Shown: positions 34,330 through 46,602 of the stretch, one piece after another
How the letters are laid out: the number at the start of each line of letters is the position of its first letter
Numbering within the stretch: position 1 is the first letter of the stretch
Source of the DNA: Bacteroidetes bacterium GWA2_31_9
Lineage (GTDB): Bacteria; Bacteroidota; Bacteroidia; Bacteroidales; GWF2-33-38
DNA: 47,307 bases
Reading direction: 5' to 3'
NCBI GenBank assembly: GCA_001768975.1
Contig: MEND01000029.1
Location: forward strand, 1 to 47,307
The notes under the pieces: generated by a model
Databases searched by the model: none
What the model was told of the DNA's origin: nothing
What the model saw: the letters and a program-made list of their open reading frames with translations, nothing else
Made by a program: the position numbers and the translations under genes

Positions 34330-34499
34330 GCAACTACTCAGCAGTTTTAAAATATTAAAAAACAAATATTTATGCCACAGATTACACGGATTAATACAGA
34401 AAATGAACTTAATTTATTATTTATTTTCACAGAAAAAACCGCCTTTGGCGGTTTAAAATCTGTGATAATCTGTGGCAAAATAAACTGCTGAGTAGTTAC
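34330..34499. mobile_element. MITE-like non-autonomous element (170 bp), family member A, with 8-bp target-site duplication GATAAATT
   Basis: The TIR is gcaactactcagcagttt (34330-34347) versus the reverse complement of 34482-34499 (gtaactactcagcagttt), a 17/18 match. The identical 8-mer gataaatt abuts both ends (34322-34329 and 34500-34507). It carries a subterminal inverted repeat gccacagatt.aca.gatt / aatctgtga.aatctgtggc and a central hairpin aaccgcc-tt-tggcggtt. Confidence 0.75.
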
Positions 34500-34521: not shown

Positions 34522-36291
34522 GTGAAAAAGTATAATCTAAAAAATAGCATTAGCTCAAGGTTATTTAAAGGTGTTTTTGTTATTATTATTGTAAACATTT
34601 TAATAGTAACAGCAAGCCTCGTAATAAATTATATTCTAAAAAACAGGTCAGATAAAATAGTTATAGAATATCACGAACTAGATGCTGTGCACGAACTAAA
34701 ACATAGTCTTAATTTATTTAAAATTTCTATTTTAGAATCTGAAAGCCCAACTAAATCAGAGATGGTTACTTATTTAAACAATATAAACAATAATATAACT
34801 GCCTGTAATTTAATCATAACAAATAATCATAATAAAAATATATTGTCAGATTTTATAATTGACATTAATAAACTGTCTGAAAATATCAGTAATAATATTA
34901 TTGATACCTTAAACAATGAAAAATATCTATATTATAAAGATTTATATAATTCAATAATTCACAATGCCGAAGTTCACCTTGATACGATAATTGAAGAAAC
35001 AAAAGAAGAAATTAACCAGCATGTTGATTTTTTTAGCAAATCATACATTAGAAGTAATATAACTGTTATTTTATTAGCTACGTTATTAATTTTTGCTTCG
35101 TATATATGGGGCTTGGGCTTTATAAGAAAAATATTTACCGAAATAAAAATACTTTTAATTGGAACTGAAAAATATATTGAGGGCGAACACACAATAAGAA
35201 TTGAAACTAAATACGATGATGAATTAAATGTATTAGCCAAATCGTTCAATAAAATGATTGAAACAATAAATACAACTACAATTTCGAGAGATTACTTCGA
35301 CAACATTTTTCAAAGTATATTTGATTTTATTATTGTAACCGACAAAAACTTTAATATCTTATCAATTAACGCTGCCGTAAAAAATAATTTATCTTATAAT
35401 TTAGAAGAATTGTCTGAGAAAAATATAAATTTATTGTTTGAAAAAGAATTAAATATTACAATAAAAGCTCAAAATATTGTTTACAATTCAGAACAAACTC
35501 TTATTTCAAAAAATAAAAATAAAATACCCGTAATAATATCAATATCAGCCATAAAAACGAATGATACAACAACAGGTTATGTTGTAATTGCACATGACAT
35601 TTCCGAAAAACTTGATAATGAAAACAAGCTAAATAATATCAGACGTGAAAATTTAATTGCGTTAAACGAGGCTCAAGAAGAAGAACGACTTCGCATTGCT
35701 AAAGAAATACACGATGGACTTGGGCAAATTTTAACAGCTATTCATTATACAATTGAAAATAAATTTAAAGAAAAATACCAAAACGATATTGAATATAAGG
35801 AAAATATATACAATCTTCAAACCCAAATCGACAATGCTATTGTAGAATCAAAAAACATAGCACACGATTTAATCCCTATTTTGTTAAAAGATTTTGGATT
35901 ATCGGTTGCTGTTAAAAATCTGATAGAATACAATTATAAAAATTGCGGTATTAAAATTAATTTCGCTACATTTTATTACGAAAAAAGAGTTGATGAAAAA
36001 ATAGAAAAAGCACTATACCGAATTATACAGGAAGCACTTAGTAATATTATAAAACATTCAAAAGCCCAAAATGCAAACATTCAAATTATTAAATTAGACG
36101 ATTTGATATCATTAACCATTGATGACGATGGTATCGGTTTTAATCCCGAAACCATTTCTAATGAAACCAAATATAGAGGAATTGGCTTATTTAGTATGAA
36201 AGAAAGAGTATATGCTTTTAATGGAGTATTTCAACTAAATAGTGATAAAAATAAAGGAACTGAAATTTTAATAGATATACCAATTAAATAA
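34522..36291 (+). CDS. Sensor histidine kinase, NarX/DegS type (periplasmic helical sensor, HAMP, PAS, HisKA_3, HATPase_c)
   Basis: GTG start. TM helices lie at about aa 17-38 and 186-206. HAMP is DDELNVLAKSFNKM. A PAS module follows. The H-box EEERLRIAKEIHDGLGQ is the HisKA_3 type. ATPase boxes are QEALSNIIKHS, DDDGIGF and GIGLFSMKER. Confidence 0.85.
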   Translation: MKKYNLKNSISSRLFKGVFVIIIVNILIVTASLVINYILKNRSDKIVIEYHELDAVHELKHSLNLFKISILESESPTKSEMVTYLNNINNNITACNLIITNNHNKNILSDFIIDINKLSENISNNIIDTLNNEKYLYYKDLYNSIIHNAEVHLDTIIEETKEEINQHVDFFSKSYIRSNITVILLATLLIFASYIWGLGFIRKIFTEIKILLIGTEKYIEGEHTIRIETKYDDELNVLAKSFNKMIETINTTTISRDYFDNIFQSIFDFIIVTDKNFNILSINAAVKNNLSYNLEELSEKNINLLFEKELNITIKAQNIVYNSEQTLISKNKNKIPVIISISAIKTNDTTTGYVVIAHDISEKLDNENKLNNIRRENLIALNEAQEEERLRIAKEIHDGLGQILTAIHYTIENKFKEKYQNDIEYKENIYNLQTQIDNAIVESKNIAHDLIPILLKDFGLSVAVKNLIEYNYKNCGIKINFATFYYEKRVDEKIEKALYRIIQEALSNIIKHSKAQNANIQIIKLDDLISLTIDDDGIGFNPETISNETKYRGIGLFSMKERVYAFNGVFQLNSDKNKGTEILIDIPIK

Positions 36292-36951
36292 ATGCAAAAA
36301 ATCAAAATTCTATTAGCCGACGACCATTTTATAATAACAGATGGTATAATTGCAATGCTATCTCAACACAAAGAATATGTGATTGTAGGAGAAGCTCGTG
36401 ATGGTGAGGAAACTTTAACGAAAGTAAAAGAATTAGCACCCGATATTTTAATAGTGGATATTTCAATGCCAAAAATAAATGGAATTGATGTAGTAAAAAA
36501 AATAAGAGAAAAGGACTCTACAATTAAAATACTTGCACTTACTCAACACGATAAAAGCGAATATATTATGCAAATGCTTAAAGCCGGAGCCGATGGATAT
36601 TTGCTAAAAAATTCAAATAAAGACGAATTAATTACTGCCTTAAAAGCTATTTCAGAAGGAAATAAATATTTTGGAAAAAAAATCTCCGATATTATTTTAA
36701 ACAATTATGTATCACAGTCTGATTTTAAGGATGAAAAGTCGGATAAAACAGAGATTCTTTTAACAAAAAGGGAAATTGAAATTATTAAACTCATAGTTAA
36801 AGATAAAAGTAATCAGGAAATTGCCGATAATTTGAATATAAGCCTCCGAACTGTCGAAACACATCGCAGAAATATTATGCAAAAACTTAATGTCAAAACT
36901 GTTGTAGCTCTTGTCAGATATGCTTTGAATAATAATATTACATCTCTTTAA
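36292..36951 (+). CDS. NarL/FixJ (LuxR-type HTH) family response regulator
   Basis: REC has LLADDH, PDILIVDISMPKINGI, ALTQH and GYLLK. The C-terminal GerE/LuxR HTH is LTKREIEIIKLIVKDKSNQEIADNLNISLRTVETHRRNIMQKL. The ATG immediately follows the kinase stop. Confidence 0.9.
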   Translation: MQKIKILLADDHFIITDGIIAMLSQHKEYVIVGEARDGEETLTKVKELAPDILIVDISMPKINGIDVVKKIREKDSTIKILALTQHDKSEYIMQMLKAGADGYLLKNSNKDELITALKAISEGNKYFGKKISDIILNNYVSQSDFKDEKSDKTEILLTKREIEIIKLIVKDKSNQEIADNLNISLRTVETHRRNIMQKLNVKTVVALVRYALNNNITSL

Positions 36952-37358
36952 ATAATCAACTATTATTCAGTGTGAGATAATATATACTGAGGGGTTTTCG
37001 ATGCTTTTAAAACAACAGATATTTTAGCATTACATAAGTTTAATAGTATTGTAACGCTTAACACATCTATTAACACACAGCCATATTATCATATAATTTA
37101 ATTCATAATCAGTGTTTTACAGCAGTGTTGTTAAGCATTGAGTTATACAACATAATTAAGCACTTAAACATGTTTTTTAATATAAAAAATTAAGAGTCTT
37201 TCCTTTTTAATAAAATATATTTAAAATTTAACATTTTGCATATTGATTTCAATTCTTACAATCTATGTATCTTGATATTATAAATAATAGTTCATTTAAT
37301 AATTATTTTCTCATTAAAACCTTATTATACTCTTTATTTCAAAAAGATACAATAAAAT

Positions 37359-37390
37359 ACGTACTGTATGGTATCAGACATACCAGCTAC
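37359..37390 (+). promoter_or_regulatory. Operator copy 1: ACGTACTGTATGGTAT-CAGAC-ATACCAGCTAC (TGGTA-N7-TACCA), upstream of the EB_dh-like gene
   Basis: The palindrome centre is at 37377, 43 bp upstream of an exact -7 box TAATTTTG (37420-37427). This is one of five related sites. Confidence 0.6.
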
Positions 37391-37466
37391 ATTGTATTGT
37401 CTTAGGAATTATTGAAAACTAATTTTGACAGATAGATAATTTTTTTATAAACTAATATTTAATAAA

Positions 37467-38777
37467 ATGAAAAAAACACTCAAATTTTTTAGTATTATTC
37501 TTGTTCTAACAGGAATATTTTGCACGAATATGGGTTGTAAGCGTGAAGGTTGTACCGACCCAAAGGCAAAAAACTATGATTCGAAAGCAAAAAAAGACGA
37601 TGGTTCGTGTACTTATGATTCTGTAACACCAACACCAACACCAACCTATGACTTAACAAAGCTAAATGCAATTAAATCAAGTGCTTCACCTTCAGTTGAT
37701 GGAAATATTGATGGTCTTTGGGCAAATGTACCATCATTAACAGTTGCACTTGGAGAAACAAACAATCCACCAAACGATGCGTCAAAAATTAATAACTGTA
37801 CTGGTTGCCATGCCTATACTAGCAGTATTTCGGTTAAATTAAAAGCCGTATATACTACTGATTATCTATACATTTTATCGGAATGGTCAGACCCAACAGC
37901 TAGTTTTACACGCGATGCATCTTGGTCATTTGCTTCGGGTTCGTGGGCAAAGCCTCATACCGGCGAATCAGAAGATAGAATATCTTTTTTCTGGCCCATC
38001 GGAACTATTGCTGGTGCTCCATACAGTACAGGCGGTTGTATGACAAAATGCCACATGTATTATCCAACAGATCAAGATCCTCATGTAAGTACTCACGGTA
38101 TTGTTGACGATGCTTGGTTAACAAGCGGAAGAGCCGATTTATGGCATAGTAAAGCTGCTCGTGCAGGTGCTGTAACTTCTGCCTCTGGTTCAGGATTAAC
38201 AATTAATTCAACTTCGCACGAAGTAACTGCCGGCACTTTTCAAATGACTGGATATGTGGACGATACTTATACTGATGTATGGGGTGATGATGCTACAAAC
38301 GGTGAAGATGGCGGTCGTTATGGTGATGCAGGAACTGCTGCTGCTTCGCATAATAGAATTTCCGACAAATCACGCCCAAAATGGATGGAAAAAAATCCAA
38401 CCGATTTTGCTGATGCAATGTTTATTACACAAACAGAAATTGATGGTGGCGAATGTGTTGGAAACGAAACAACTGGAGTTAGCGATGCCGATGCTGCAAT
38501 TTATTGGCCTAAGTATACGGCTCTTAATGCTATTGTATGCGAACGAATTCATAAAGTGCCAACAGGAAGTCGTGGCGACTTAGAAATTGGTGCTGTTTGG
38601 AATAATGGTAAATGGACAACCGAAATTGCCAGAAAACTAAATACCGGCACTACCGATGATATTCAATATACCGATTTATTAAAAGAATATTTGTTTAATG
38701 TAGCTCAATTTGATAATTCAAGACATGGTTACGAACACAGATGCTCTAAATCGTATTATATGAAATTTATTCCTTAA
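37467..38777 (+). CDS. Secreted lipoprotein with EB_dh / DOMON-like heme-binding domain and one CXXCH motif
   Basis: It has a signal peptide with Cys (lipobox-like), a GCTDP.A.NY...A..DDGSC.Y module and a Thr/Pro linker. The segment VDG..D..W......L.V, the motif CTGCH (CXXCH), ISFFWPI, CMTKCH and DLWHSKAAR resemble the heme-binding gamma-subunit domain of ethylbenzene dehydrogenase-type enzymes. Confidence 0.6.
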   Translation: MKKTLKFFSIILVLTGIFCTNMGCKREGCTDPKAKNYDSKAKKDDGSCTYDSVTPTPTPTYDLTKLNAIKSSASPSVDGNIDGLWANVPSLTVALGETNNPPNDASKINNCTGCHAYTSSISVKLKAVYTTDYLYILSEWSDPTASFTRDASWSFASGSWAKPHTGESEDRISFFWPIGTIAGAPYSTGGCMTKCHMYYPTDQDPHVSTHGIVDDAWLTSGRADLWHSKAARAGAVTSASGSGLTINSTSHEVTAGTFQMTGYVDDTYTDVWGDDATNGEDGGRYGDAGTAAASHNRISDKSRPKWMEKNPTDFADAMFITQTEIDGGECVGNETTGVSDADAAIYWPKYTALNAIVCERIHKVPTGSRGDLEIGAVWNNGKWTTEIARKLNTGTTDDIQYTDLLKEYLFNVAQFDNSRHGYEHRCSKSYYMKFIP

Positions 38778-38824
38778 GTTTTATGAAAAGGAATATTTAT
38801 TGTGTAAATAGTTAGTAAGAATGA

Positions 38825-38858
38825 AAGAAGCGTTTGTAAAAACGCTTCTTTTTATTTT
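38825..38858 (+). terminator. Rho-independent terminator after the EB_dh-like gene
   Basis: The stem gaagcgttt / aaacgcttc has a gtaa loop and is followed by tttttatttt. Confidence 0.75.
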
Positions 38859-38866
38859 AAACAACC

Positions 38867-39073
38867 ATGACTCAGACATTTTTAACAAAACGAGAACTTG
38901 AAATTGTGAAATTAATAGTTAAAGATAAAAGCAATCAGGAAATTGCCGATAACTTAAATATTAGCCTCCGAACAGTCGAAACACACCGCAGAAATATTAT
39001 GCAAAAGCTTAATGTCAAAACCGTTGTAGCCCTTGTAAGATATGCTTTGAATAAAAATATCGCCTCTCTTTAA
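38867..39073 (+). CDS. Stand-alone LuxR/GerE-type HTH protein (68 aa), a partial duplicate of the regulator at 36292-36951
   Basis: The protein LTKRELEIVKLIVKDKSNQEIADNLNISLRTVETHRRNIMQKLNVKTVVALVRYALNKNIASL differs from the C-terminus of the RR at only about 5 positions. High nucleotide similarity extends over about 190 bp. It has no receiver domain. The ATG starts about 9 nt after the terminator T-run. Confidence 0.65.
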   Translation: MTQTFLTKRELEIVKLIVKDKSNQEIADNLNISLRTVETHRRNIMQKLNVKTVVALVRYALNKNIASL

Positions 39074-39092
39074 TTTTTTTAAAAGATTCAAT

Positions 39093-39122
39093 AAGTACTC
39101 TATGGTATATTTTTACCATAAA
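39093..39122 (+). promoter_or_regulatory. Operator copy 2: AAGTACTCTATGGTATATTTTTACCATAAA (TGGTA-N6-TACCA), upstream of chrA
   Basis: The palindrome centre is at 39110.5, 41.5 bp upstream of the near-consensus -7 box TATTTTTA (39152-39159). Confidence 0.55.
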
Positions 39123-39163
39123 CACAGTATTTTAATGCAAAAAAGTATAGCTATTTTTACAAA

Positions 39164-40288
39164 ATGAATAAAAATAATTTAAAAGAACTTGCAAAATTAT
39201 TTACTAAATTAGGATTTATTTCCTTTGGAGGACCAGCAGTACACACAGCAATGATGTATAATGAAGTTGTAGTAAAACGCAAATGGCTAGAAGAACAACA
39301 TTTTCTTGATTTAGTTGGTGCAACTAATTTAATACCAGGTCCAAATAGCACAGAACTAGCAATACATATTGGCTATGAAAAAGGCGGTTGGAAAGGTTTA
39401 ATTATAGCAGGTATTTGTTTTATTTTGCCAGCAGTTATTATAACAACTATTTTTGCTTGGTTTTATAAAAATTATGGTCAATTGCCCCAAATTCAACCAT
39501 TTATTTATGGTATAAAACCAGCTTTAATTGCAATTATACTTGTAGCAATATATCCGCTTTTTAAAAAATCGTTTAAGACTTTAGAATTAGGACTTATTGG
39601 TATAATGGCTTTATTGTTATCATTATTAAAATTTAATGAAATTTATATAATGTTTGGTGCAGGATTATTTGCAATTCTGTTAGATGTAATTAAAAATAAT
39701 AAATCAAACTCAAATATTATTTTACCACTTCTGCTTTTTCAATTTCCAAAATTTACATTTTTAACCTCATTAAATCTTAATTTATTTCTAATTTTTCTTA
39801 AAATTGGAGCAATTCTTTATGGTAGTGGTTATGTTTTGTTTGCATTTCTCGATAATGAATTGGTTGCTAGAGGGCTAATTTCCAGAAATCAATTAATTGA
39901 TGCTGTTGCTGTTGGACAATTTACACCCGGTCCAATATTTTCTTCAGTTACTTTTATTGGTTATCAGATAAGTGGTTTGATGGGTGCAATAGTATCTACA
40001 CTTGGTATTTTTCTTCCATCTTTTATATTTGTTGCATTGTTAAATCCAATAGTCAAGAAATTGAAAAATTCAAAACTATTTTCCGCCTTTTTAGATGCAG
40101 TTAATATTACTTCTGTTGCTATTATTATTGCCATTTGCTTCCAACTAGGACAAGATTCAATAACCGACTGGCGAACAATAGTAATTGCAATTATGAGTTT
40201 AATAATCTTGTTTAAATTTAAGAAATTTAACAACATTTATATTGTTTTGGGAAGTTCAATTTTAGGCTATATCCTTTTACTGATTTAA
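39164..40288 (+). CDS. chrA: Chromate ion transporter (CHR family), fused two-domain form
   Basis: The N-terminal F.KLGFISFGGPAVH.AMM...V..R.W and GATNLIPGPNSTE match the family. A second homologous half has GAILYGSGYV and VGQFTPGPIFSSVTFIGY. About 10-12 TM helices. Confidence 0.85.
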   Translation: MNKNNLKELAKLFTKLGFISFGGPAVHTAMMYNEVVVKRKWLEEQHFLDLVGATNLIPGPNSTELAIHIGYEKGGWKGLIIAGICFILPAVIITTIFAWFYKNYGQLPQIQPFIYGIKPALIAIILVAIYPLFKKSFKTLELGLIGIMALLLSLLKFNEIYIMFGAGLFAILLDVIKNNKSNSNIILPLLLFQFPKFTFLTSLNLNLFLIFLKIGAILYGSGYVLFAFLDNELVARGLISRNQLIDAVAVGQFTPGPIFSSVTFIGYQISGLMGAIVSTLGIFLPSFIFVALLNPIVKKLKNSKLFSAFLDAVNITSVAIIIAICFQLGQDSITDWRTIVIAIMSLIILFKFKKFNNIYIVLGSSILGYILLLI

Positions 40289-40332
40289 TTAAAATCTGTA
40301 ATTCTGTTTAACGTTTCAAAATCACATAACAT

Positions 40333-40376
40333 ACGTACTATATGGTATATTTTTACCTTAAATATGGTATTGGTAT
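40333..40376 (+). promoter_or_regulatory. Operator copy 3: ACGTACTATATGGTATATTTTTACCTTAAATATGGTATTGGTAT (palindrome plus two extra TGGTAT half-sites)
   Basis: The palindrome centre is at 40350.5, 42.5 bp upstream of the -7-like box TAACCTTG (40393-40400). Confidence 0.55.
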
Positions 40377-40417
40377 TACAAAATAATAAGCTTAACCTTG
40401 CATAATTTTTATAATTA

Positions 40418-41833
40418 ATGCAAAAGATTAATTTAATACTACGCACACCAACCATAACGACATGGCTTAAAATTATTAGCCTTGTGATGTTTATACTGCT
40501 TATAATTATTGGTCTTTCGGCAAATTCGTCAGATTCTGCATTTTTAAAAGAATTAAGAAATACAAACCTTGCTAACCTTATAGTTTGGAGTTATTGGTGG
40601 CCCATAATTATAATTACAGCAATATTTTTTGGGCGATTATGGTGTATGGTATGCCCAGTAGAACTTATAACAACTATTGCATCTAAGTTAGGACTACGAA
40701 ACAAACGTCCACGTTGGATTTTATCAGGTTGGGCTATTACGATTTTTTACATTTTAATATTATTTATAGGAATTGAAGGCTTTGCAATACATCGAAATCC
40801 TACATACATGGCAATATACCTTCTTTCAATTATTGCAGTTTCTGTTATCACAGGATTAGTTTGGGAAAAAAACACATTTTGCCGTTATTTTTGCCCGGTT
40901 GGATATTTATTGGGAATTTATTCACGATTATCGTTTTTGGGTTGGAGAGTAAAATCTCAAAGTATTTGCAGCTCTTGTAAAGACAAATCATGTATTCATA
41001 AAAATTACACATACAATATTGATAAAAAAAGTTGTGGAGTTGACCTCTACCCTGCCCAAATAAGCGACAATTCAAACTGTATTTTATGTGCAGGTTGTGC
41101 AAAAAGTTGTAGCCAATATCAAACTGTAAAAATTAACGAAAGACCAAACCCACAATTAGTAAAAATTGGTTTTGCAAACGACTTATTTAAAGTAAAACCA
41201 TTAAAATATGCCGAAATGTTTTTTGTAATGGTAGTTTCGGGCTTTGTAATTTCTGAAATTTGGTCGGAATGGAAAACTACCGATAATTTATTAAAAATTA
41301 TTCCCGATTTAATAATTGAAAAATTTTCAATAAATATCCATTTTTTAGAAGTTTTAATAAGCTCTACAATTATTTTCATCATATATCCTCTTATTTTGTG
41401 GCTTTTACCATATTTCATATCACAACTTGTTGGCTTAAAATTGAAATTAAAAGATTATTTATTAAACTACGGAATAGCTTTTATTCCTATTATTGCTGCT
41501 GCACACCTCGATAAAGCTATTTTGAAGATGACATCTAGGCTACCATATTTTCAATACCTTTTCGACGATGTTTCGGGCATGAAAACAACACCGAACATTA
41601 TCGAACATAAAATTACATTATTCCAAATGCCATTTTGGTTTAACTTTTTGGTATCTGTAGCAATTAGTTTTATTATGCTTATTGGAATATATTTAAGCTT
41701 TAAAACCATTAAGCTTATAAATAAAAAATATTCATACAACAATACTGAATCAAAACCAATTTACTCGCTTTCTGCAATATATGGTTCAGTATTTTTAATT
41801 ATGTTGTTAGCTTGGAAGTGGATTAATTTTTAA
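40418..41833 (+). CDS. Integral membrane 4Fe-4S polyferredoxin-like protein (NapH / NosR / CcoG-type Fer4_5 motifs) with extra C-terminal TM bundle
   Basis: TM-proximal motifs GRLWCMVCPVE and FCRYFCPVGYL are present. A cytoplasmic Cys cluster reads CSSCKDKSC...CGVD...CILCAGCAKSC. At least 8 TM helices. Confidence 0.7.
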   Translation: MQKINLILRTPTITTWLKIISLVMFILLIIIGLSANSSDSAFLKELRNTNLANLIVWSYWWPIIIITAIFFGRLWCMVCPVELITTIASKLGLRNKRPRWILSGWAITIFYILILFIGIEGFAIHRNPTYMAIYLLSIIAVSVITGLVWEKNTFCRYFCPVGYLLGIYSRLSFLGWRVKSQSICSSCKDKSCIHKNYTYNIDKKSCGVDLYPAQISDNSNCILCAGCAKSCSQYQTVKINERPNPQLVKIGFANDLFKVKPLKYAEMFFVMVVSGFVISEIWSEWKTTDNLLKIIPDLIIEKFSINIHFLEVLISSTIIFIIYPLILWLLPYFISQLVGLKLKLKDYLLNYGIAFIPIIAAAHLDKAILKMTSRLPYFQYLFDDVSGMKTTPNIIEHKITLFQMPFWFNFLVSVAISFIMLIGIYLSFKTIKLINKKYSYNNTESKPIYSLSAIYGSVFLIMLLAWKWINF

Positions 41834-41845
41834 AAAAACAGAATA

Positions 41846-41883
41846 AGTAATACATGGTATAAAAAATACCAAATCAATGGTAT
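41846..41883 (+). promoter_or_regulatory. Operator copy 4: AGTAATACATGGTATAAAAAATACCAAATCAATGGTAT (TGGTA-N7-TACCA plus one extra half-site), not followed by a CDS
   Basis: The palindrome centre is at 41863, 43 bp upstream of the one-mismatch -7 box TATTTTCG (41906-41913). It starts 13 nt after the stop of the polyferredoxin gene. Confidence 0.5.
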
Positions 41884-41914
41884 TTTATTTTCTGTATCAA
41901 GTACTTATTTTCGT

Positions 41915-42060
41915 TCCATTAATTTAGTGTTACGTATATTGGTTAATTGATTGATAACTGAAAATTTGACATATTTTAACAAATTCTAATTTTCATAAAT
42001 CGCAAATAAAATACTAAGTTATAACCAAAAAGGGTAGCTTTTGCTATCCTTTCTTTATTT
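41915..42060 (+). ncRNA. Candidate small non-coding RNA (or orphan leader) bounded by operator/promoter copy 4 and an intrinsic terminator
   Basis: No ATG occurs between about 41920 and 42031. The terminator is gggtagc-tttt-gctatcc (42032-42049, one G-U pair) followed by tttctttattt. The start coordinate is only inferred from the -7 box. Confidence 0.3.
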
Positions 42061-42087
42061 AAGTTCTTTTTAACAAAAAACAAAAAC

Positions 42088-42116
42088 TACGTAGTTTATG
42101 GTATATAAATACCAAG
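42088..42116 (+). promoter_or_regulatory. Operator copy 5: CTACGTAGTTTATGGTATATAAATACCAAG (TGGTA-N6-TACCA), upstream of the diheme cytochrome gene
   Basis: The palindrome centre is at 42106.5, 42.5 bp upstream of the exact -7 box TACTTTTG (42149-42156). An extra TACCA half-site at 42142-42146 abuts the box. Confidence 0.6.
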
Positions 42117-42205
42117 TATATGTTATTGTGAAGTACGATATTACCATCTACTTTTGAAACAATAAAATTTTAAAATAATTTAATAATAATCTAAAAAATT
42201 ACACA

Positions 42206-43129
42206 ATGAAAAAGAAAATGTATTTTATTGCGGTTTTGTTTCTCGCAATCTTAACCGTAACAACTCAAAGTTGCAAAAAGGGCGAAGATGGAGTTGATGG
42301 TGCTCCTGGTACTGCCGGAACAAATGGAACTGATGGTTATGGTGCTGTAACTGCTGCCGACCAAGCTGCTTTCGATGCTGCCGATGGCACAATTGGAGCA
42401 AGATTATATGACCATCCATTAAATGAAATAAACTATTTACCCTCTGCTGTAATGTCAAGTGGAAGCCGTTCAAACTTTTTCAGATGTAAAAGTTGTCATG
42501 GTTGGGATTTACGTGGAAGAAATGGAGTTTTAATAGACAAAGGCCCTTCTAGCTCATATCCTGTAGCTGCCGATGTTGACTTATACGCCTGGGCAAGATT
42601 ACACAGTATTCGTGAAGTTTTTGATGCAGTTAAAAACGTTGGTGGAAGAAATAAAAGTTTGAAACAATCTTATAATGGTAATATGCCTTATTATGGTGAA
42701 ATTTTAAACGATTCACAAATTTGGCAAATTGTTAAATTCTTAAAAGTAACTTCACATAATACAGATGATTTTTATGATATAGCCACAACAGGTACATATC
42801 CAACAGGAAGTAAAACTTTCTCAAATATTGGAAAAGGTGGAAATGCTACAAACGGTAAAGTAGTATATGATTCAAAATGCAAAAGTTGTCATGGTGCTGA
42901 TGGAAAAACTATTGATATTTATTGCAAAGGTTTATTCTTAGGCGAAATGTTCAGATTAGACCCACATGAAGTGCATCATAAAGCAATTTGGGGAATGCCA
43001 GTTGATAGAGAAAATGTTGCCATAGGTTGTACTTCTGGAGATTATGCAATGCCACAAATTGCCATTACAGACCAAGATATTAGAGATATGATGGTTATGG
43101 GTCAAGACACAGTACTTTTTCCTTGGTAA
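42206..43129 (+). CDS. Diheme c-type cytochrome lipoprotein with a short collagen-like Gly-X-Y linker
   Basis: It has a signal peptide plus lipobox (TTQSC). Seven GXY triplets follow (GEDGVDGAPGTAGTNGTDGYG). Two CXXCH motifs are present (CKSCHGWD and CKSCHGADG), each with downstream Met candidates (NMPYYG, YAMPQ). Confidence 0.75.
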   Translation: MKKKMYFIAVLFLAILTVTTQSCKKGEDGVDGAPGTAGTNGTDGYGAVTAADQAAFDAADGTIGARLYDHPLNEINYLPSAVMSSGSRSNFFRCKSCHGWDLRGRNGVLIDKGPSSSYPVAADVDLYAWARLHSIREVFDAVKNVGGRNKSLKQSYNGNMPYYGEILNDSQIWQIVKFLKVTSHNTDDFYDIATTGTYPTGSKTFSNIGKGGNATNGKVVYDSKCKSCHGADGKTIDIYCKGLFLGEMFRLDPHEVHHKAIWGMPVDRENVAIGCTSGDYAMPQIAITDQDIRDMMVMGQDTVLFPW

Positions 43130-43156
43130 GAGTTTTTTTCATAAATTTTATAATTT

Positions 43157-43190
43157 TAAAAGAGGTTGAAATTTCAACCTCTTTTTTTGC
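43157..43190 (+). terminator. Rho-independent terminator
   Basis: Perfect 10-bp stem agaggttgaa / ttcaacctct with a 2-nt loop, followed by a T-run. Confidence 0.8.
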
Positions 43191-43220
43191 AAATTAAAAA
43201 CTCAGGATTTTAAAAGAAGC

Positions 43221-43433
43221 GTAACTATTCAGCCTCTAATTAATTAATAAAAAAGCCACAGATTCACAGATTAAATCTATGATAATTAAAACAATAACCA
43301 AATATTAATTACACAGATTTAAACAACCAAAGGTTGTTTATTCTGCGAAAATTTACAAAAAATGATTAATTTTAATCTGTGAATCTGTGGCATATATTTG
43401 TTATTTAGCGTTTTAAATAGGGTGAATAGTTAC
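43221..43433. mobile_element. MITE-like non-autonomous element (213 bp), family member B, with 8-bp target-site duplication AAAGAAGC
   Basis: The TIR gtaactattcagcct (43221-) versus the reverse complement of the right end gtaactattcaccct has 11 perfect terminal bp. aaagaagc abuts both ends (43213-43220 and 43434-43441). The subterminal inverted repeat gccacagattcacagatta / taatctgtgaatctgtggc is perfect. The central hairpin is aaacaacc-aa-aggttgttt. The TIR termini and subterminal inverted repeat are shared with element A at 34330-34499. Confidence 0.75.
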
Positions 43434-43650
43434 AAAGAAGCTTCAAATGTTCTTATTTTTATATTCTACAACATATTTGACTATTGCAAATTATACATTT
43501 AGAAATCTTCTAAAATCATTATTATTTGAGCATTACAATCAATCATAATTATATATTTAGTTATTAACATATATAAACCACATAATATTAATATCTATTA
43601 TTCCGAAAAAAATGTATTTTTATACTTAAATTGTGCAATTTTAAAAACAC

Positions 43651-43693
43651 AGTGTTTCTTTAGAAAACTTCAAAAATGATACTAAGAAGCACT
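43651..43693. repeat. Short copy of the AGTGTTTCTTTAGAAAACT inverted-repeat family
   Basis: agtgtttctttagaaaacttcaaaaatgatactaagaagcact. The first arm is almost identical to the reverse complement of 8884-8903. Confidence 0.5.
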
Positions 43694-43710
43694 AAATAAA
43701 CAATTAAATT

Positions 43711-46602
43711 ATGAATATCATTAATAAAATTTGGAGTGTTCTATATAAAGACCTACCAGTTCATGTTAAGTTTTATATATCATTTTTTTGGATTTTACTA
43801 TTTATAGCAATATCATTTACAAGCGTTTATATCCACACAAACAATTCTGCTAAAAATAATAAAATACTTGATTATTCTAATTTAGCATTATCCAAAAGTC
43901 AAAAATTATTTTCGCTTACATCATTAGCTATAAATGAAGATTTATCAGTTAGTAGTCCTGCAAAACAAAATTTAAACCATGAATTGATTGAAATAAATAC
44001 CATTTATAATAATCTGAAATATGGCGGAATTATTTTCAATTCCGATAACTCTCAAACATATATTAAAGCTATTAAAGACGAAAAAACTCTTGTAAAATTG
44101 AACGAAGTTGAAAAGATTTTCAATGAGCAAAAAAAACTATTTTCAGTAATTGTTAAAGAAACAACATTTTTAAACGAATTAAATATTAAGCCATACACAA
44201 TTCTTGATAGCACTTCAACTTCACAGAATCTAAACGTTATTACTTTAATGAATCCAATAGTTAAATCTGCAATTAAAGAAATAAATTCTTATGCTATTGA
44301 AAATTCATTAATTACAAATAATGAACAACTATGCGAAATGATTAAACAATATAATACTGCAAATGAGAATATATTTCTGTCACTTTTTATTTTAATTAAT
44401 ATTATTGCATTAATAATCATATTATTTAACTTTTTTATTCTTCAAATATTCATTGTAAGTCCAATTAACAAAATTGCTAAAGCATCTGTTGAAATTGCAA
44501 AAGGAGATTTAAAAACTAAACTTTCGCACAAAATAAATGACAATCTTGGACTTATTGTTTCGTCAATTAAATCATTAATTGAAAATTTAAAAAATGCTTC
44601 AGAATTTACAATTAAAATTGGACAAGGAAATTATGATGCAAACCTAGAAGTAATAAAAGATGGAAATATTGACGAAAAAGACAATTTGAATGTTGCGTTA
44701 ATGAACATGCGCGATAAACTTAAAAGCGTTGCAGAAGAAGAAAAACGAAGAAATTGGGCAACATCTGGTTTTGCGATTTTTGGAGAAATTCTTCGCCAAG
44801 ATAACGATAACATCGAAAAGCTATCATACAACATTATTAAAAATCTTGTAAAATTCATGGATATTAATCAAGCAGGGATGTTTTTATTAAACGAGTCTGA
44901 AGATAACAAATTCCTTGAAATGACTGCTTGCCATGCCTATGACAGAAAGAAATTTTCAGACCGAAAAGTAAATATTGGAGAAGGATTTATTGGCACATGC
45001 TTTATCGAAAAAGAAACAATTTATGTAACTGATGTTCCTACTGATTATATTAATATTACATCAGGTTTAGGAGATGCCCCTCCACGTAGCATTCTAATAG
45101 TTCCAATGAAACTAAACGATGTTGTGTATGGTATTTTAGAATTAGCATCATTTACTAGCTTTGAAAAATATCAAATTGAATTTGTTGAAAAAGTTGGAGA
45201 AAGCGTTGCATCAACTATTTCGACAGTAAAAATCAACATCCAAACTTCTAAGCTTCTAACTAAATCGCAACAACAAACCGAAATTCTATTGCAACAAGAA
45301 GAAGAAATGCGTCAAAATCTTGAAGAATTACATTCAACTCAAGATGAAATTTTAAAACGCGAATCAGAAATCACGGGCATTGTAAATGCAATAGATAACA
45401 CAATTGCAAAAGCCGAACTTCAATTAAATGGAGTAATTATTAATGTAAATGCTAAGTTTAATAAAGTTTTTGAAGTAGAAAAAACAAATCTTACAAACCA
45501 TAATATTAAAAAATTCATTGATGATAATCAATTCGATATTTTTGATGAAAGCTTCGAAATAGTCTCATCTGGTGAAAGTTCCGATTTTACTATAAAAGGA
45601 CATACTGCAAAAAATACAAAAAAATGGCTACTTTGTTCTGTTACACCTGTTTTTGATTCAAATAAACAAATTGCTAAAGTACTGTTTATGGCAATTGACG
45701 TAACTCAACAAAAAGAACTTGAATCGGAATTAGCTCAAAAAGACGAGCTTCAAAAGCAAGAAATTGAAAAACTAATTCACGAAAACAACCAAAAACTTGA
45801 AGAAATAATTGCAACTCAAGAAGAATCAACAAAGCGAGAAACTGAGCTTTCTGCAATTATAAATGGAATAAACGAATCTTTAGGTTCTTATGAATTTGAT
45901 GAAAAAGGAATAGTACTCAATGTAAACAGAATGTTTCTTGATATAACTGGGTTAAAAGAAAATGAGATAATTGGACAATCAATTATTGACTTTATGCCTG
46001 TTGAAAAACAAAAGTTAATGTACGACTTATTACCTAAGCTTTTTAAAGGCGACAAACACTCTGGTCCACATCAATTTATATTTAAAGGAGTTGAAAAATG
46101 GTGTTTCGAAACCTATACCCCTGTAAAATCTTCTAATGGTAATTTTAATAAAATATTAGTTCTTGCCAACGAAATTACTCAAGTTGTTATGCAAGATCGC
46201 AAAATGAAGACACAATCCGATGAATTAATGGCACAACAAGAAGAGTTGCGTCAGAATATGGAAGAAATGCAAACACTTCAGGAAGATACTTTAAAGAGAA
46301 TGGAAGAAGCTGAAAATTTAAAAAATCAATTAGCAGAAAAAGACAAACTTCAAAGTATCGAAATTGAAAAACTAACTAATGAAAATAATCAGAAACTTCA
46401 AGAATTAATAAAAATTCAGGAAAAAATTCTAAAAGATGCAGAAGAGCAAAGAACTAAAGATGAACTAATCGTAAAACAAGCAAAAGAAGAAGCACAAATT
46501 CAAATTCTAAATATGGAAGAAGATTTCTTTATGAAGCAAAAAGAATTGAAAAAGAAATTAAAAGCAGCAACTTTAGAATTAGAAGCTACAAAAAATAATT
46601 AA
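43711..46602 (+). CDS. Membrane sensor protein: periplasmic helical (PilJ/NarX-like) domain, HAMP, GAF, two PAS-like modules separated by repeated coiled coils; no recognisable output domain
   Basis: Two TM helices lie at about aa 20-42 and 220-245. HAMP is SPINKIAKASVEIAKGDLKTKL...DNLGLIVSSIKSLIENL. GAF is ...GEGFIGTCFIEKETIYVTDVP...SILIVPMKLNDVVYGILELASF. Three coiled-coil heptad blocks of the QQEE.RQN.EE....Q type are present. The sequence ends in a Lys/Glu coiled coil with no H-box, GGDEF, MCP signalling or HTH motif visible. Confidence 0.75.
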   Translation: MNIINKIWSVLYKDLPVHVKFYISFFWILLFIAISFTSVYIHTNNSAKNNKILDYSNLALSKSQKLFSLTSLAINEDLSVSSPAKQNLNHELIEINTIYNNLKYGGIIFNSDNSQTYIKAIKDEKTLVKLNEVEKIFNEQKKLFSVIVKETTFLNELNIKPYTILDSTSTSQNLNVITLMNPIVKSAIKEINSYAIENSLITNNEQLCEMIKQYNTANENIFLSLFILINIIALIIILFNFFILQIFIVSPINKIAKASVEIAKGDLKTKLSHKINDNLGLIVSSIKSLIENLKNASEFTIKIGQGNYDANLEVIKDGNIDEKDNLNVALMNMRDKLKSVAEEEKRRNWATSGFAIFGEILRQDNDNIEKLSYNIIKNLVKFMDINQAGMFLLNESEDNKFLEMTACHAYDRKKFSDRKVNIGEGFIGTCFIEKETIYVTDVPTDYINITSGLGDAPPRSILIVPMKLNDVVYGILELASFTSFEKYQIEFVEKVGESVASTISTVKINIQTSKLLTKSQQQTEILLQQEEEMRQNLEELHSTQDEILKRESEITGIVNAIDNTIAKAELQLNGVIINVNAKFNKVFEVEKTNLTNHNIKKFIDDNQFDIFDESFEIVSSGESSDFTIKGHTAKNTKKWLLCSVTPVFDSNKQIAKVLFMAIDVTQQKELESELAQKDELQKQEIEKLIHENNQKLEEIIATQEESTKRETELSAIINGINESLGSYEFDEKGIVLNVNRMFLDITGLKENEIIGQSIIDFMPVEKQKLMYDLLPKLFKGDKHSGPHQFIFKGVEKWCFETYTPVKSSNGNFNKILVLANEITQVVMQDRKMKTQSDELMAQQEELRQNMEEMQTLQEDTLKRMEEAENLKNQLAEKDKLQSIEIEKLTNENNQKLQELIKIQEKILKDAEEQRTKDELIVKQAKEEAQIQILNMEEDFFMKQKELKKKLKAATLELEATKNN

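What the first reader, a model, noticed from the sequence alone, without database searches (positions are those of the whole stretch)
37359..42156. Five copies of a TGGTA-N6/7-TACCA palindrome at a fixed 41.5-43 bp from -7 boxes
Seen directly. The sites are at 37369-37385, 39103-39118, 40343-40358, 41855-41871 and 42099-42114. All share a 5' extension (A/C)GTA.T..(T/C)ATGGTAT. In every case the palindrome centre lies 41.5-43 bp upstream of the first base of a TAnnTTTG-like box (TAATTTTG, TATTTTTA, TAACCTTG, TATTTTCG, TACTTTTG). Constant spacing across five intergenic regions within 4.8 kb is very unlikely by chance. It is the geometry expected for an activator site contacting polymerase. The TACC core is reminiscent of, but not identical to, NarL-type heptamers (TACYYMT). 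The adjacent LuxR-type regulator at 36292 and its HTH-only copy at 38867 are the obvious candidate binders. I saw full palindromes only in these intergenic regions, while isolated ATGGTAT half-sites do occur inside CDSs.
Basis: seen in the sequence. Interest (0 to 1): 0.7.

Follow-up and report, generated by a model that had tools for sequence, protein, structure and literature searches.

The report
Response-regulator operator at five cytochrome promoters
The five repeats are real and are most likely the docking sites of the neighbouring two-component response regulator, which switches on a small set of haem and cytochrome genes in an uncultured groundwater Bacteroidetes bacterium.

Summary
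Four exact TGGTA-N6/7-TACCA copies (0.09 expected by chance) and one copy with a single mismatch (TACCT) sit at the stated coordinates. Each lies 41.5-43 bp upstream of a TAnnTTTG box.

The palindrome is not the functional unit, however. Each site is an oriented composite of about 42 bp:
- an upstream pair, TA[C/A]GTAn-Tn-tATGGTA (TAC-N10-GTA);
- a gap of 6-8 bp;
- a promoter-proximal pair, TACC[A]nn-nn-nATGnTA, fused to the -33 TTG;
- 20 bp further on, the -7 box.

In 24 sites from 20 loci the spacings within each pair and from the proximal pair to the promoter never vary. TAC-N10-GTA is the geometry of E. coli NarL "7-2-7" sites.

The composite tracks orthologues of the adjacent NarL-family regulator: 19 of 20 loci with a regulator at least 45% identical have it, against 0 of 62 paralogue loci. 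Paralogous regulators with the same TVETHRRN recognition helix carry perfect ATACC-N8-GGTAT pairs upstream of their own operons.

The best model is that phosphorylated regulator dimers bind both pairs. The proximal pair would be centred near -43.5 and would activate Bacteroidetes sigma-A promoters for haem and cytochrome genes. This is a new member of a known kind, and nothing has been tested by experiment.

The parts
34522..36291 (+). Sensor histidine kinase: two transmembrane segments, a periplasmic helical domain, then HAMP, PAS, HisKA_3 and HATPase domains
   Evidence: Pfam and NCBIfam; translation. Orthologues 33-57% identical sit next to the regulator in the related loci.
36292..36951 (+). 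NarL/FixJ-family response regulator (REC + GerE HTH), the proposed binder
   Evidence: The closest solved structures are VraR and NarL. D10, D11, D56, T84 and K106 are invariant, and so is the helix ISLRTVETHRRN.
37358..37399 (+). Composite operator s1: upstream pair 37358-37373, 7-bp gap, proximal pair 37381-37396, -33 TTG 37397-37399
37420..37427 (+). -7 box TAATTTTG of promoter s1 (predicted start about 37432)
   Evidence: Box position -12 to -5 is taken from PMC9723704.
37467..38777 (+). Target 1: EB_dh-domain haem lipoprotein with CxxCH and CX3CH motifs. Terminator-like hairpin at 38823-38852.
38867..39073 (+). 68-aa stand-alone GerE HTH, a paralogue of the regulator's output domain and a probable second binder of the same sites
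   Evidence: the aligned copies differ at 14 synonymous and 7 non-synonymous codons out of 68, and 46 consecutive residues spanning the HTH are identical. Found only in this organism among the loci examined.
39092..39132 (+). Composite operator s2: upstream pair 39092-39107, 6-bp gap, proximal pair 39114-39129, -33-like TTT 39130-39132
39152..39159 (+). -7 box TATTTTTA of promoter s2. The predicted start coincides with the A of the ATG at 39164, so the mRNA would be leaderless.
39164..40288 (+). Target 2: ChrA-family (chromate-type) anion transporter
40332..40372 (+). Composite operator s3: upstream pair 40332-40347, 6-bp gap, proximal pair 40354-40369 (left half TACCT), TTG 40370-40372
40393..40400 (+). 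-7 box TAACCTTG of promoter s3
40418..41833 (+). Target 3: NapH/MauN-like membrane 4Fe-4S protein (Fer4_5)
   Evidence: A 59-60% identical homologue lies next to the HK-RR pair in L044 and L045.
41844..41885 (+). Composite operator s4 ("orphan"): upstream pair 41844-41859, 7-bp gap, proximal pair 41867-41882, TTT 41883-41885
41906..41913 (+). -7 box TATTTTCG of promoter s4
41918..42060 (+). Predicted non-coding transcript of about 140 nt from promoter s4, ending at the terminator-like hairpin 42029-42052
   Evidence: There is no + strand ORF of 20 aa or more. Terminator-like hairpin. Fold z-score -3.1. No Rfam match. Conservation could not be tested.
42088..42128 (+). Composite operator s5: upstream pair 42088-42103, 6-bp gap, proximal pair 42110-42125, TTG 42126-42128
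42149..42156 (+). -7 box TACTTTTG of promoter s5
42206..43129 (+). Target 5: dihaem cytochrome c lipoprotein
   Evidence: A 60% identical orthologue is the gene directly downstream of the composite site in L041.

Best explanation
Each of the five sites is an oriented operator of about 42 bp for the adjacent NarL/FixJ-family response regulator (36292-36951), and probably also for its receiver-less paralogue at 38867-39073.

The operator has four half-sites of the type TAC[C/G]WW / WW[C/G]GTA, arranged as two NarL-style "7-2-7" pairs (TAC-N10-GTA). The upstream pair is TA[C/A]GTAn-Tn-tATGGTA. The promoter-proximal pair is TACC[A]nn-nn-nATGnTA, and it is fused to the Bacteroidetes -33 TTG element, which lies 20 bp upstream of the -7 box TAnnTTTG.

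Inferred mechanism: the histidine kinase phosphorylates the regulator, and regulator dimers occupy both pairs. The proximal dimer would be centred near -43.5, directly against the -33 element, and would recruit sigma-A RNA polymerase in the class II manner. The upstream dimer would be centred near -65.5 to -67.5 and would add affinity or a second contact.

The output is five promoters. They drive an EB_dh-type haem protein, a ChrA-type transporter, a NapH-like Fe-S membrane protein, a cytochrome c and a short non-coding transcript.

Shown here: the anatomy, the invariant spacings, and the co-occurrence with the regulator lineage. Inferred: binding, activation rather than repression, and the transcription starts.
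For: 1. Enrichment. There are 4 exact palindromes against 0.09 expected. A 12-position skeleton of the composite hits only the five window sites plus exactly one + strand site in each of 19 other loci, in 1.12 Mb of sequence. Shuffles give 0-1 hits.

2. Out-of-sample test. A pattern defined from the window and four genome loci was applied to 80 metagenome loci fetched with the regulator alignment. It hit the top-ranked regulator orthologues and no others. The three apparent misses carry degenerate copies. Overall the composite is in 19 of 20 loci with a regulator at least 45% identical and in 0 of 62 others (Fisher p = 1e-17). The one exception, L056, has a different recognition helix.

3. Tracking the regulator rather than the target. 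EB_dh orthologues 70-82% identical but without the HK-RR pair (L004-L006) lack the site.

4. Spacings, measured with flexible patterns. TAC to GTA in the upstream pair is N10 in all 20 sites measured. Proximal TAC to ATTG is 15 bp in all 20. ATTG to the -7 box is 24 bp, apart from one true 23 and three where the search pattern matched one base early. The gap between the pairs is 6, 7 or 8 bp.

5. Geometry. It equals the NarL 7-2-7 site TACCCCTAAAGGGGTA, which a dimer of the NarL output domain binds. The activating sites at napF and yeaR are given as -40 to -49 and -38 to -47 (PMC4549865). With the -7 box at -12 to -5 (PMC9723704), the TTG falls at -35 to -33 and the proximal pair at -51 to -36.

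6. Independent support for the unit. Paralogous regulators with the same TVETHRRN helix, in GC-rich loci, have perfect ATACC-N8-GGTAT pairs. In 14 loci one lies upstream of the start of the ORF carrying the HK match, 12 of them 50-162 bp from it and 2 closer (3 and 12 bp). TACC-N8-GGTA gives 34 hits against about 7 in shuffles.

7. The regulator is canonical. It has REC + GerE domains and the phospho-acceptor residues, and its recognition helix is invariant among orthologues.

8. All sites point at the downstream gene, and the changes in the palindrome arms are not compensatory, which argues for a protein site rather than a hairpin.
Against: - There are no binding, footprint or transcript data. 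The transcription starts, and therefore the -43.5 and -66 positions, rest on consensus boxes only.
- Outside the TAC/GTA cores the upstream pair is not palindromic. Its left half, TA[C/A]GT, is invariant but differs from TACCAT, so it could be read in another register (GTA direct repeats 10 bp apart) or by another protein.
- The right half of the proximal pair is degenerate and overlaps the -33 element, so part of its conservation may be promoter signal rather than operator.
- The gap of 6-8 bp changes the helical phase between the two pairs by up to about 70 degrees. That does not fit a rigid tetramer.
- In L003/L118 the site persists with no HK-RR pair nearby, so the regulator would have to act in trans.
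- No site was found upstream of the HK-RR genes themselves.
- The 24 sites were collected with patterns that fix some positions. The invariance of those positions (TA at 5-6 and GTA at 18-20 of the upstream pair, TAC of the proximal pair) is therefore partly by construction.
Confidence: 0.7

Rival explanations
1. One regulator dimer binds the inner palindrome ATGGTAT-N-ATACCAT. The outer TACGTA block and the ATGnTATTG block are auxiliary elements: another protomer or protein for the first, and an extended -33 promoter element for the second.
For: The inner half-sites are the best conserved and the most mutually complementary. The arms pair at 5 of 5 positions in 12 of 24 sites. Heptamer positions 4-7 of the upstream pair are complementary in only 1-5 of 24 sites. 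The right half of the proximal pair overlaps the -33 TTG, so it could be promoter sequence.
Against: The spacer varies from 6 to 8 bp, and between 6 and 7 bp within this one genome, so a single protein would have to tolerate it. Every other spacing is invariant. In L046 and L062 the left arm is ACGTA, and in L007, L010, L039 and L044 the right arm is TACGT, with no compensation. Paralogous regulators with the same helix use isolated TACC-N8-GGTA pairs, which is the fixed-spacing unit and not GGTA-N6-8-TACC.
Confidence: 0.15
2. The composite is bound by the regulator, but it acts as a repressor operator or anti-activator site rather than as an activator site.
For: NarL-family proteins repress at some promoters. 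At frdA the isolated output domain represses constitutively. The proximal pair touches the -33 element, so occupancy could occlude sigma region 4.
Against: The sites lie wholly upstream of -33/-7 and do not cover the -7 box or the predicted start. The -33 elements are minimal (ATTG or ATTT instead of TTTG), as expected of activator-dependent promoters. The placement matches the activating NarL sites at napF and yeaR.
Confidence: 0.1
3. The site belongs to a different regulator encoded elsewhere, for example a redox or metal regulator. It travels with the HK-RR pair only because both serve the same cytochrome genes.
For: In L003/L118 the site is retained upstream of the EB_dh gene with no HK-RR pair within the contig. 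Binding has not been tested.
Against: The site tracks the regulator and not the targets, because EB_dh loci without the pair lack it. In 19 loci it lies just downstream of the regulator gene's stop (35-150 bp where measured), whatever gene follows: EB_dh, cytochrome c or multihaem cytochromes. Its geometry is that of the regulator's own family. Paralogues with the same helix carry the same pair. No other regulator gene is shared by the loci.
Confidence: 0.04
4. It is not a protein site. It could be a hairpin-forming or transcribed RNA element, a sigma-54-type promoter (TGG...), or simply promoter copies spread by local duplication.
For: TGGTA...TACCA can form a 5-6 bp stem. All five copies lie within 4.8 kb of one another.
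Against: Arm changes are not compensatory, and half of the sites cannot form the full stem. The element lies upstream of conserved -33/-7 boxes. No Rfam family matches. There is no GG-N10-GC sigma-54 pattern and no enhancer-binding protein. Conservation across loci whose regulators are only 45-57% identical, with freely varying spacers, shows selection on specific positions rather than recent copying.
Confidence: 0.01

Closest known systems
E. coli NarL/NarP 7-2-7 heptamer sites (for example the napF and yeaR promoters, and the engineered site TACCCCTAAAGGGGTA)
   Same: Same regulator family (REC + GerE HTH, with a HisKA_3 kinase partner). Inverted heptamers with a 2-bp spacer, which is TAC-N10-GTA. 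The TACC core. A site placed around -40 to -50 at activated promoters. The output domain binds as a dimer, and the isolated output domain is active on its own (PMC4549865).
   Different: The heptamer is TACCATn or TACGTAn, not TACYYMT. Two pairs are always arranged in tandem with a 6-8 bp gap. The promoter is the Bacteroidetes -33/-7 type. The kinase scores far below the NarX and NarQ cut-offs and aligns only from the HAMP domain onward. The targets are haem and cytochrome genes, not nitrate respiration genes.
LuxR/TraR-type class II activation from a 18-20 bp inverted repeat centred near -42 (from general knowledge, not tested here)
   Same: A GerE-type HTH dimer on a dyad that abuts the -35-equivalent element and stands in for a weak upstream promoter element.
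   Different: Those proteins are ligand-controlled, not phosphorylation-controlled. They use a single dyad. The sequence is unrelated.
GerE of Bacillus subtilis and the isolated NarL C-terminal domain, as analogues of the 68-aa protein
   Same: An HTH of about 70 aa with no receiver domain. It is expected to bind the family's sites without phosphorylation. The NarL C-terminal domain represses frdA constitutively and activates napF.
   Different: Here the stand-alone HTH is a recent paralogue of a full-length regulator in the same cluster and has an identical recognition core. Its role as amplifier, competitor or remnant is unknown.
Bacteroidetes sigma-A promoters (-33 TTTG, -7 TAnnTTTG)
   Same: A -7 box matching TAnnTTT[G/A/C], or TAACCTTG at s3, at all five sites. 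A TTG or TTT lies 20 bp upstream of it, at predicted -35 to -33.
   Different: The -33 element is reduced to (A)TTG or TTT and is fused to the last half-site of the operator.

Membership tests
NarL/FixJ (LuxR-type HTH) two-component regulator with its operator | The regulator has an N-terminal receiver domain with the phospho-acceptor Asp and a C-terminal GerE HTH | tested here: met
   Pfam Response_reg (2.6e-29) and GerE (1.4e-20). The best solved relatives are VraR and NarL. D10, D11, D56, T84 and K106 are invariant.
NarL/FixJ (LuxR-type HTH) two-component regulator with its operator | An adjacent cognate histidine kinase of the HisKA_3 type | tested here: met
   HisKA_3 and HATPase_c in the ORF at 34522-36291, whose stop abuts the regulator's start codon. 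The pairing is conserved in the orthologous loci.
NarL 7-2-7 operator | Inverted heptamers separated by 2 bp (TAC-N10-GTA) | tested here: met
   N10 in all 20 upstream pairs measured. The proximal TAC lies a fixed 15 bp from ATTG, which puts its partner triplet at N10. That partner reads GTA in 4 of 5 window sites and is degenerate elsewhere.
NarL 7-2-7 operator | Heptamer sequence TACYYMT | tested here: not met
   The consensus heptamers are TACCATn and TACGTAn, so only TAC(C) is shared. It works like a 7-2-7 site but is not a NarL/NarP site.
NarX/NarQ-NarL nitrate system | The kinase and regulator are orthologues of NarX/NarQ and NarL/NarP | tested here: not met
   NCBIfam scores are 75 and 71 bits against cut-offs of 553 and 578 for NarQ and NarX, and 144 bits against 250 for NarL. 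The NarQ alignment starts at residue 168, after the sensor domain.
NarL/FixJ operator | The regulator physically binds the site in a phosphorylation-dependent way | not testable with these tools
   There is only comparative co-occurrence: 19 of 20 against 0 of 62 loci.
Class II activator-dependent promoter | The activator site is centred about -41.5 to -44.5, abuts the -35-equivalent element, and lies upstream of the start | tested here: inconclusive
   The proximal pair is predicted at -51 to -36 (centre -43.5) if the -7 box lies at -12 to -5. No transcription start has been mapped.
Bacteroidetes sigma-A promoter | A -7 TAnnTTTG box with a -33 TT(T)G about 19-21 bp upstream | tested here: met
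   The boxes are at a fixed distance in all 24 sites. The spacer from TTG to TA is 20 bp, or 19 bp in s2. Consensus taken.
CRP/FNR-type palindromic site (5-N6-5 or 5-N4-5, bound by one dimer) | A fixed spacer between the two arms, and a CRP/FNR-family regulator | tested here: not met
   The spacer varies from 6 to 8 bp. There is no CRP/FNR-family gene in the cluster.

The most novel reading that the evidence does not exclude
The TVETHRRN-helix clade of NarL-family regulators may use one portable DNA code, TACC-N8-GGTA pairs placed against the -35/-33 element, across phyla. In Bacteroidota this particular kinase-regulator pair would be the dedicated switch for an extracytoplasmic electron-transfer module. 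That module comprises EB_dh-type haem proteins, multihaem cytochromes exported by the type IX secretion system, a NapH-like quinol-side protein and cytochrome c. In this organism the circuit would have two extra layers: a receiver-less copy of the output domain that reads the same operators without phosphorylation, and a regulator-dependent small RNA made from the "orphan" fourth promoter.
Probability: 0.3. Interest if true: 0.6.

Novelty: new member of a known kind. Interest (0 to 1): 0.4.

Why it matters
- It gives a concrete, testable operator model, with half-site, spacing rules and promoter placement, for a two-component system conserved in uncultured Bacteroidota from groundwater and sediments.
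- It ties that system to genes for secreted or periplasmic haem proteins that may carry out extracellular electron transfer. Very few NarL-type regulons are defined in this phylum, whose promoters differ from the E. coli paradigm.
- The rule "TVETHRRN helix goes with TACC-N8-GGTA" could be used to predict regulons for many related regulators in metagenomes.
- The correction of the unit (two fixed-spacing pairs rather than the eye-catching central palindrome) decides how binding experiments and genome-wide scans should be designed.

Tried and rejected
- **Hairpin or RNA element.** Arm changes are not compensatory and only 12 of 24 sites can form the full stem. An Rfam scan of 36900-43800 found nothing relevant; the only hit was a chance miRNA match at E = 0.2.
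- **Sigma-70 consensus scan.** It was uninformative in this 29% GC sequence: 46 hits against 41 expected. The Bacteroidetes -33/-7 consensus was used instead.
- **Sigma-54 promoter and CRP/FNR-type site.** Both were rejected on pattern, on spacer variability and on the absence of the matching regulators.
- **Mobile repeat or recent promoter duplication.** Rejected, because only specific positions are conserved across loci whose regulators are 45-57% identical.
- **Autoregulation.** No pair or composite lies upstream of the kinase gene.
- **Extra sites elsewhere.** None was found in the window. Orthologous loci usually have a single composite, and L119 has two.
- **The 400-bp non-coding stretch between the regulator gene and s1.** It has no ORF, no notable repeat and no RNA family.
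- **Literature.** Searches for a described Bacteroidetes NarL-type motif, or for regulation of EB_dh and multihaem cytochromes in Bacteroidetes, found nothing matching. The library covers open-access papers only, so absence is weak evidence.
- **The signal sensed by the kinase.** It could not be identified. The periplasmic domain matches no family.

Full report
**1. Setting**

The window is 29% GC. Identical DNA is found on groundwater metagenome contigs. The closest named relative is the Bacteroidetes bacterium GWA2_30_7.

The finding lies in a same-strand cluster:
- a sensor kinase with HAMP, PAS and HisKA_3 domains, 34522-36291;
- a NarL/FixJ-type response regulator, 36292-36951;
- an EB_dh-domain haem protein, 37467-38777;
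- a 68-aa GerE-type HTH protein, 38867-39073;
- a ChrA-family transporter, 39164-40288;
- a NapH-like Fer4_5 membrane protein, 40418-41833;
- a cytochrome c, 42206-43129.

**2. Checking the observation**

- The exact pattern TGGTA-N6/7-TACCA occurs four times in 47 kb. The shuffle expectation is 0.09, and no shuffle out of 100 reached four.
- The fifth listed site (40343) reads TACCT on the right, one mismatch, but it is plainly homologous.
- The shared 5' extension and the five TAnnTTTG-like boxes are as described. The centre-to-box distances are 41.5-43 bp.
- A weight matrix built from the five sites finds nothing else in the window above 12 bits, while the five score 47-52. That matrix was trained on these same sites.
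- All five are intergenic, on the + strand, and upstream of a + strand gene. The fourth is the exception (see section 8).

**3. What the element really looks like**

Aligning the five regions shows about 42 conserved bp rather than 16-17. The pattern is TA[C/A]GTAn-Tn-[T/C]ATGGTAT, a short AT-rich gap, [A/T]TACC[A/T], then 7 variable bp, and A[T/C]n[G/T]TATT[G/T].

I then collected related loci in three ways:
- homologues of the EB_dh protein, used as an alignment to fetch 35 genome loci;
- an alignment of regulator orthologues, used to fetch 80 metagenome loci;
- contigs carrying two close EB_dh homologues.

The four genome loci that keep kinase, regulator and EB_dh in the same order (L007, L010, L011, L012; regulator 46-48% identical) carry the same composite between the regulator and EB_dh genes. 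EB_dh loci of equal or greater similarity that lack the kinase-regulator pair (L004, L005, L006) do not.

**4. Out-of-sample test**

A pattern written before I saw the metagenome loci hit 11 loci, all among the 15 best-ranked regulator matches, and none of the other 65. Three apparent misses (L039, L046, L062) have the composite with a substituted half-site: ATAGTA or TACGTA in place of ATGGTA.

A 12-position skeleton, TA[AC]-N10-GTA-N6-8-TAC[CG]-N11-ATT[GTA], then hits only the following in 1.12 Mb, on both strands:
- the five window sites;
- one site in each of 19 other loci;
- three reverse-strand echoes of near-symmetric sites.

Block shuffles of the same sequence give 0-1 hits.

The split is 19 of 20 loci with a regulator at least 45% identical against 0 of 62 with more distant regulators (Fisher p = 1e-17). 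The one exception, L056, has a different recognition helix, SVRTIETHRFN. All positive loci share ISLRTVETHRRN[I/L/V]MQKL, apart from one L-to-Q and two Q-to-H substitutions. The best composite score per locus is bimodal: 21 loci score 33.5 bits or more, and the next scores 23. That matrix was trained on these sites, so the skeleton test is the cleaner one.

**5. Spacing**

The distances below were measured with patterns that allowed slack.

| Interval | Result |
|---|---|
| First TAC to the GTA of ATGGTA | N10 in all 20 sites measured |
| TAC of TACC to ATTG | 15 bp in all 20 sites measured |
| ATTG to the -7 box | 24 bp; one true 23 (s2), and three where the search pattern matched one base early |

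Both 6 and 7 bp occur within this one genome, so the same protein must cope with both. The palindrome arms are fully complementary in only 12 of 24 sites, and the substitutions are not compensatory.

The rigid units are therefore two flanking pairs of TAC-N10-GTA. The palindrome is made of their inner halves.

TACCAT and TACGTA behave as interchangeable versions of one half-site, TAC[C/G]WW. TACGTA is the usual left half of the upstream pair. It replaces ATGGTA as the right half of that pair in L046 and L062. It replaces TACCA in the proximal pair in L007, L010 and L039.

**6. Comparison with known systems**

TAC-N10-GTA is exactly the geometry of E. coli NarL 7-2-7 sites, for example TACCCCTAAAGGGGTA. 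The NarL output domain binds these as a dimer. Activating sites at napF and yeaR lie at -40 to -49 and -38 to -47 (PMC4549865).

In Bacteroidetes the sigma-A -7 box TAnnTTTG occupies -12 to -5 (PMC9723704), and a TTTG lies near -33 (PMC7366714 and PMC2483708). Applying this gives:
- the conserved TTG at -35 to -33;
- the proximal pair at -51 to -36, centre -43.5;
- the upstream pair centred at -65.5 to -67.5;

The heptamers TACCATn and TACGTAn do not fit NarL's TACYYMT. The kinase and regulator score far below the NarX, NarQ and NarL thresholds. The element works like a NarL site but is not a member of the Nar system.

**7. Independent support for the pair as the binding unit**

Among the 62 "negative" loci are many GC-rich kinase-regulator pairs whose regulators share the TVETHRRN helix but are only 37-42% identical. 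They carry perfect ATACC-N8-GGTAT pairs. In 14 loci one lies upstream of the start of the ORF carrying the HK match: 12 of them 50-162 bp from it and 2 closer (3 and 12 bp). The ORF starts are approximate. A few loci have further copies downstream of the regulator, and some of those have a second pair 7 bp away. TACC-N8-GGTA occurs 34 times against about 7 in shuffles. The fixed-spacing pair, not GGTA-N6-8-TACC, is what recurs with this helix.

**8. What is controlled**

In orthologous loci the gene downstream of the composite is one of the following:
- an EB_dh-type haem protein;
- a cytochrome c 60% identical to the one in the window;
- most often a multihaem cytochrome with MtrC/MtrF-like domains, in several cases with a type IX secretion tail.

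L119 has two composites, one before EB_dh and one before a secreted multihaem cytochrome, followed by OprB and FeoAB. The conserved output is therefore extracytoplasmic haem proteins, plausibly an electron-transfer chain. The signal is unknown.

The window is unusual in having five composite promoters within 4.8 kb. The fourth has no ORF downstream. Its predicted transcript of about 140 nt ends at a terminator-like hairpin at 42029-42052 and folds better than shuffles, z = -3.1. It is a candidate regulator-dependent small RNA, but its conservation could not be tested.

**9. The 68-aa HTH**

The 68-aa HTH aligns with the last 68 codons of the regulator. The two copies differ at 14 synonymous and 7 non-synonymous codons. 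The non-synonymous changes lie in the first 13 and last 7 residues, and 46 consecutive residues spanning the HTH are identical. It is therefore under selection and should read the same half-sites without needing phosphorylation. The isolated NarL output domain behaves in this way. Among all the loci examined it occurs only in this organism.

**10. Limits**

- Nothing here shows binding, activation or the transcription starts.
- The upstream pair is not a true palindrome beyond TAC/GTA. Its invariant left half, TA[C/A]GT, could be read in a different register or by another protein.
- The right half of the proximal pair overlaps the -33 element.
- The site in L003/L118 has no kinase-regulator pair nearby.
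- Literature searches found no prior description, but they cover open-access papers only.

**11. Verdict**

It is best described as a tandem 7-2-7-like operator of a conserved Bacteroidota NarL-family two-component system, driving class II-type activation of haem and cytochrome promoters. That makes it a new member of a known kind, of moderate interest.

Noticed in passing
window 34374-34476 and 43255-43391: There are two copies of a MITE/REP-like element of about 105-137 bp. It has terminal inverted repeats, GCCACAGATT[A]CAC[A/G]GATTAA ... TTAATCTGTG[AT]AATCTGTGGC, and an internal GC-rich hairpin. The two copies bracket the whole block from the kinase gene to the cytochrome c gene. They are the only complete copies in the 47 kb, and no other fetched locus has the element.
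   Followed up: partly
window 41918-42060: The fourth composite promoter has no ORF downstream. It would make a non-coding transcript of about 140 nt ending at a terminator-like hairpin (42029-42052). Fold z-score -3.1; no Rfam family. It is a possible regulator-dependent small RNA.
   Followed up: partly
window 38867-39073: The 68-aa HTH-only gene is a paralogue of the regulator's output domain and is under purifying selection. The two copies differ at 14 synonymous and 7 non-synonymous codons, and 46 consecutive residues are identical. It sits behind a terminator-like hairpin with no composite site of its own. It is absent from all other loci. In L118 the homology with the window stops about 64 nt into this gene.
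   Followed up: partly
window 39152-39166: The ChrA promoter (s2) places the predicted transcription start on the A of the ATG at 39164, which implies a leaderless mRNA.
   Followed up: no
window 37467-38777; loci L015, L016, L024, L025, L027, L028: The EB_dh-domain haem protein is 56-60% identical to proteins in archaea: four named Methanococcoides genomes or MAGs (L016, L024, L027, L028), one further Methanococcoides species (L025) and a Methanobacteriota MAG (L015). Its CxxCH (C111-H115) and CX3CH (C191-H196) motifs are invariant in the alignment of 25 homologues, none of them confirmed archaeal. This suggests recent transfer of an uncharacterised haem protein between domains.
   Followed up: no
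loci L055, L074, L077, L087, L090-L092, L094, L097, L103, L105, L107, L108, L110, L111: GC-rich paralogous kinase-regulator operons carry a perfect ATACC-N8-GGTAT pair upstream of the start of the ORF carrying the HK match, mostly 50-162 bp from it (3 and 12 bp in L090 and L111). This suggests autoregulation by regulators that share the TVETHRRN helix. Some loci have a second pair 7 bp away.
   Followed up: partly
locus L119, 2633-13638: A relative with an EB_dh protein 77% identical has the order kinase, EB_dh, regulator, multihaem cytochrome with a type IX secretion tail, OprB, FeoAB. It carries two composite sites. The neighbouring ferrous-iron uptake genes hint at a link to iron.
   Followed up: partly
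window 37031-37357: About 330 bp of non-coding DNA upstream of site s1 is 88-91% identical to the region upstream of the EB_dh gene in L118, where the upstream neighbour is an EF-G-like gene rather than the regulator. No ORF, repeat or RNA family was found in it.
   Followed up: partly
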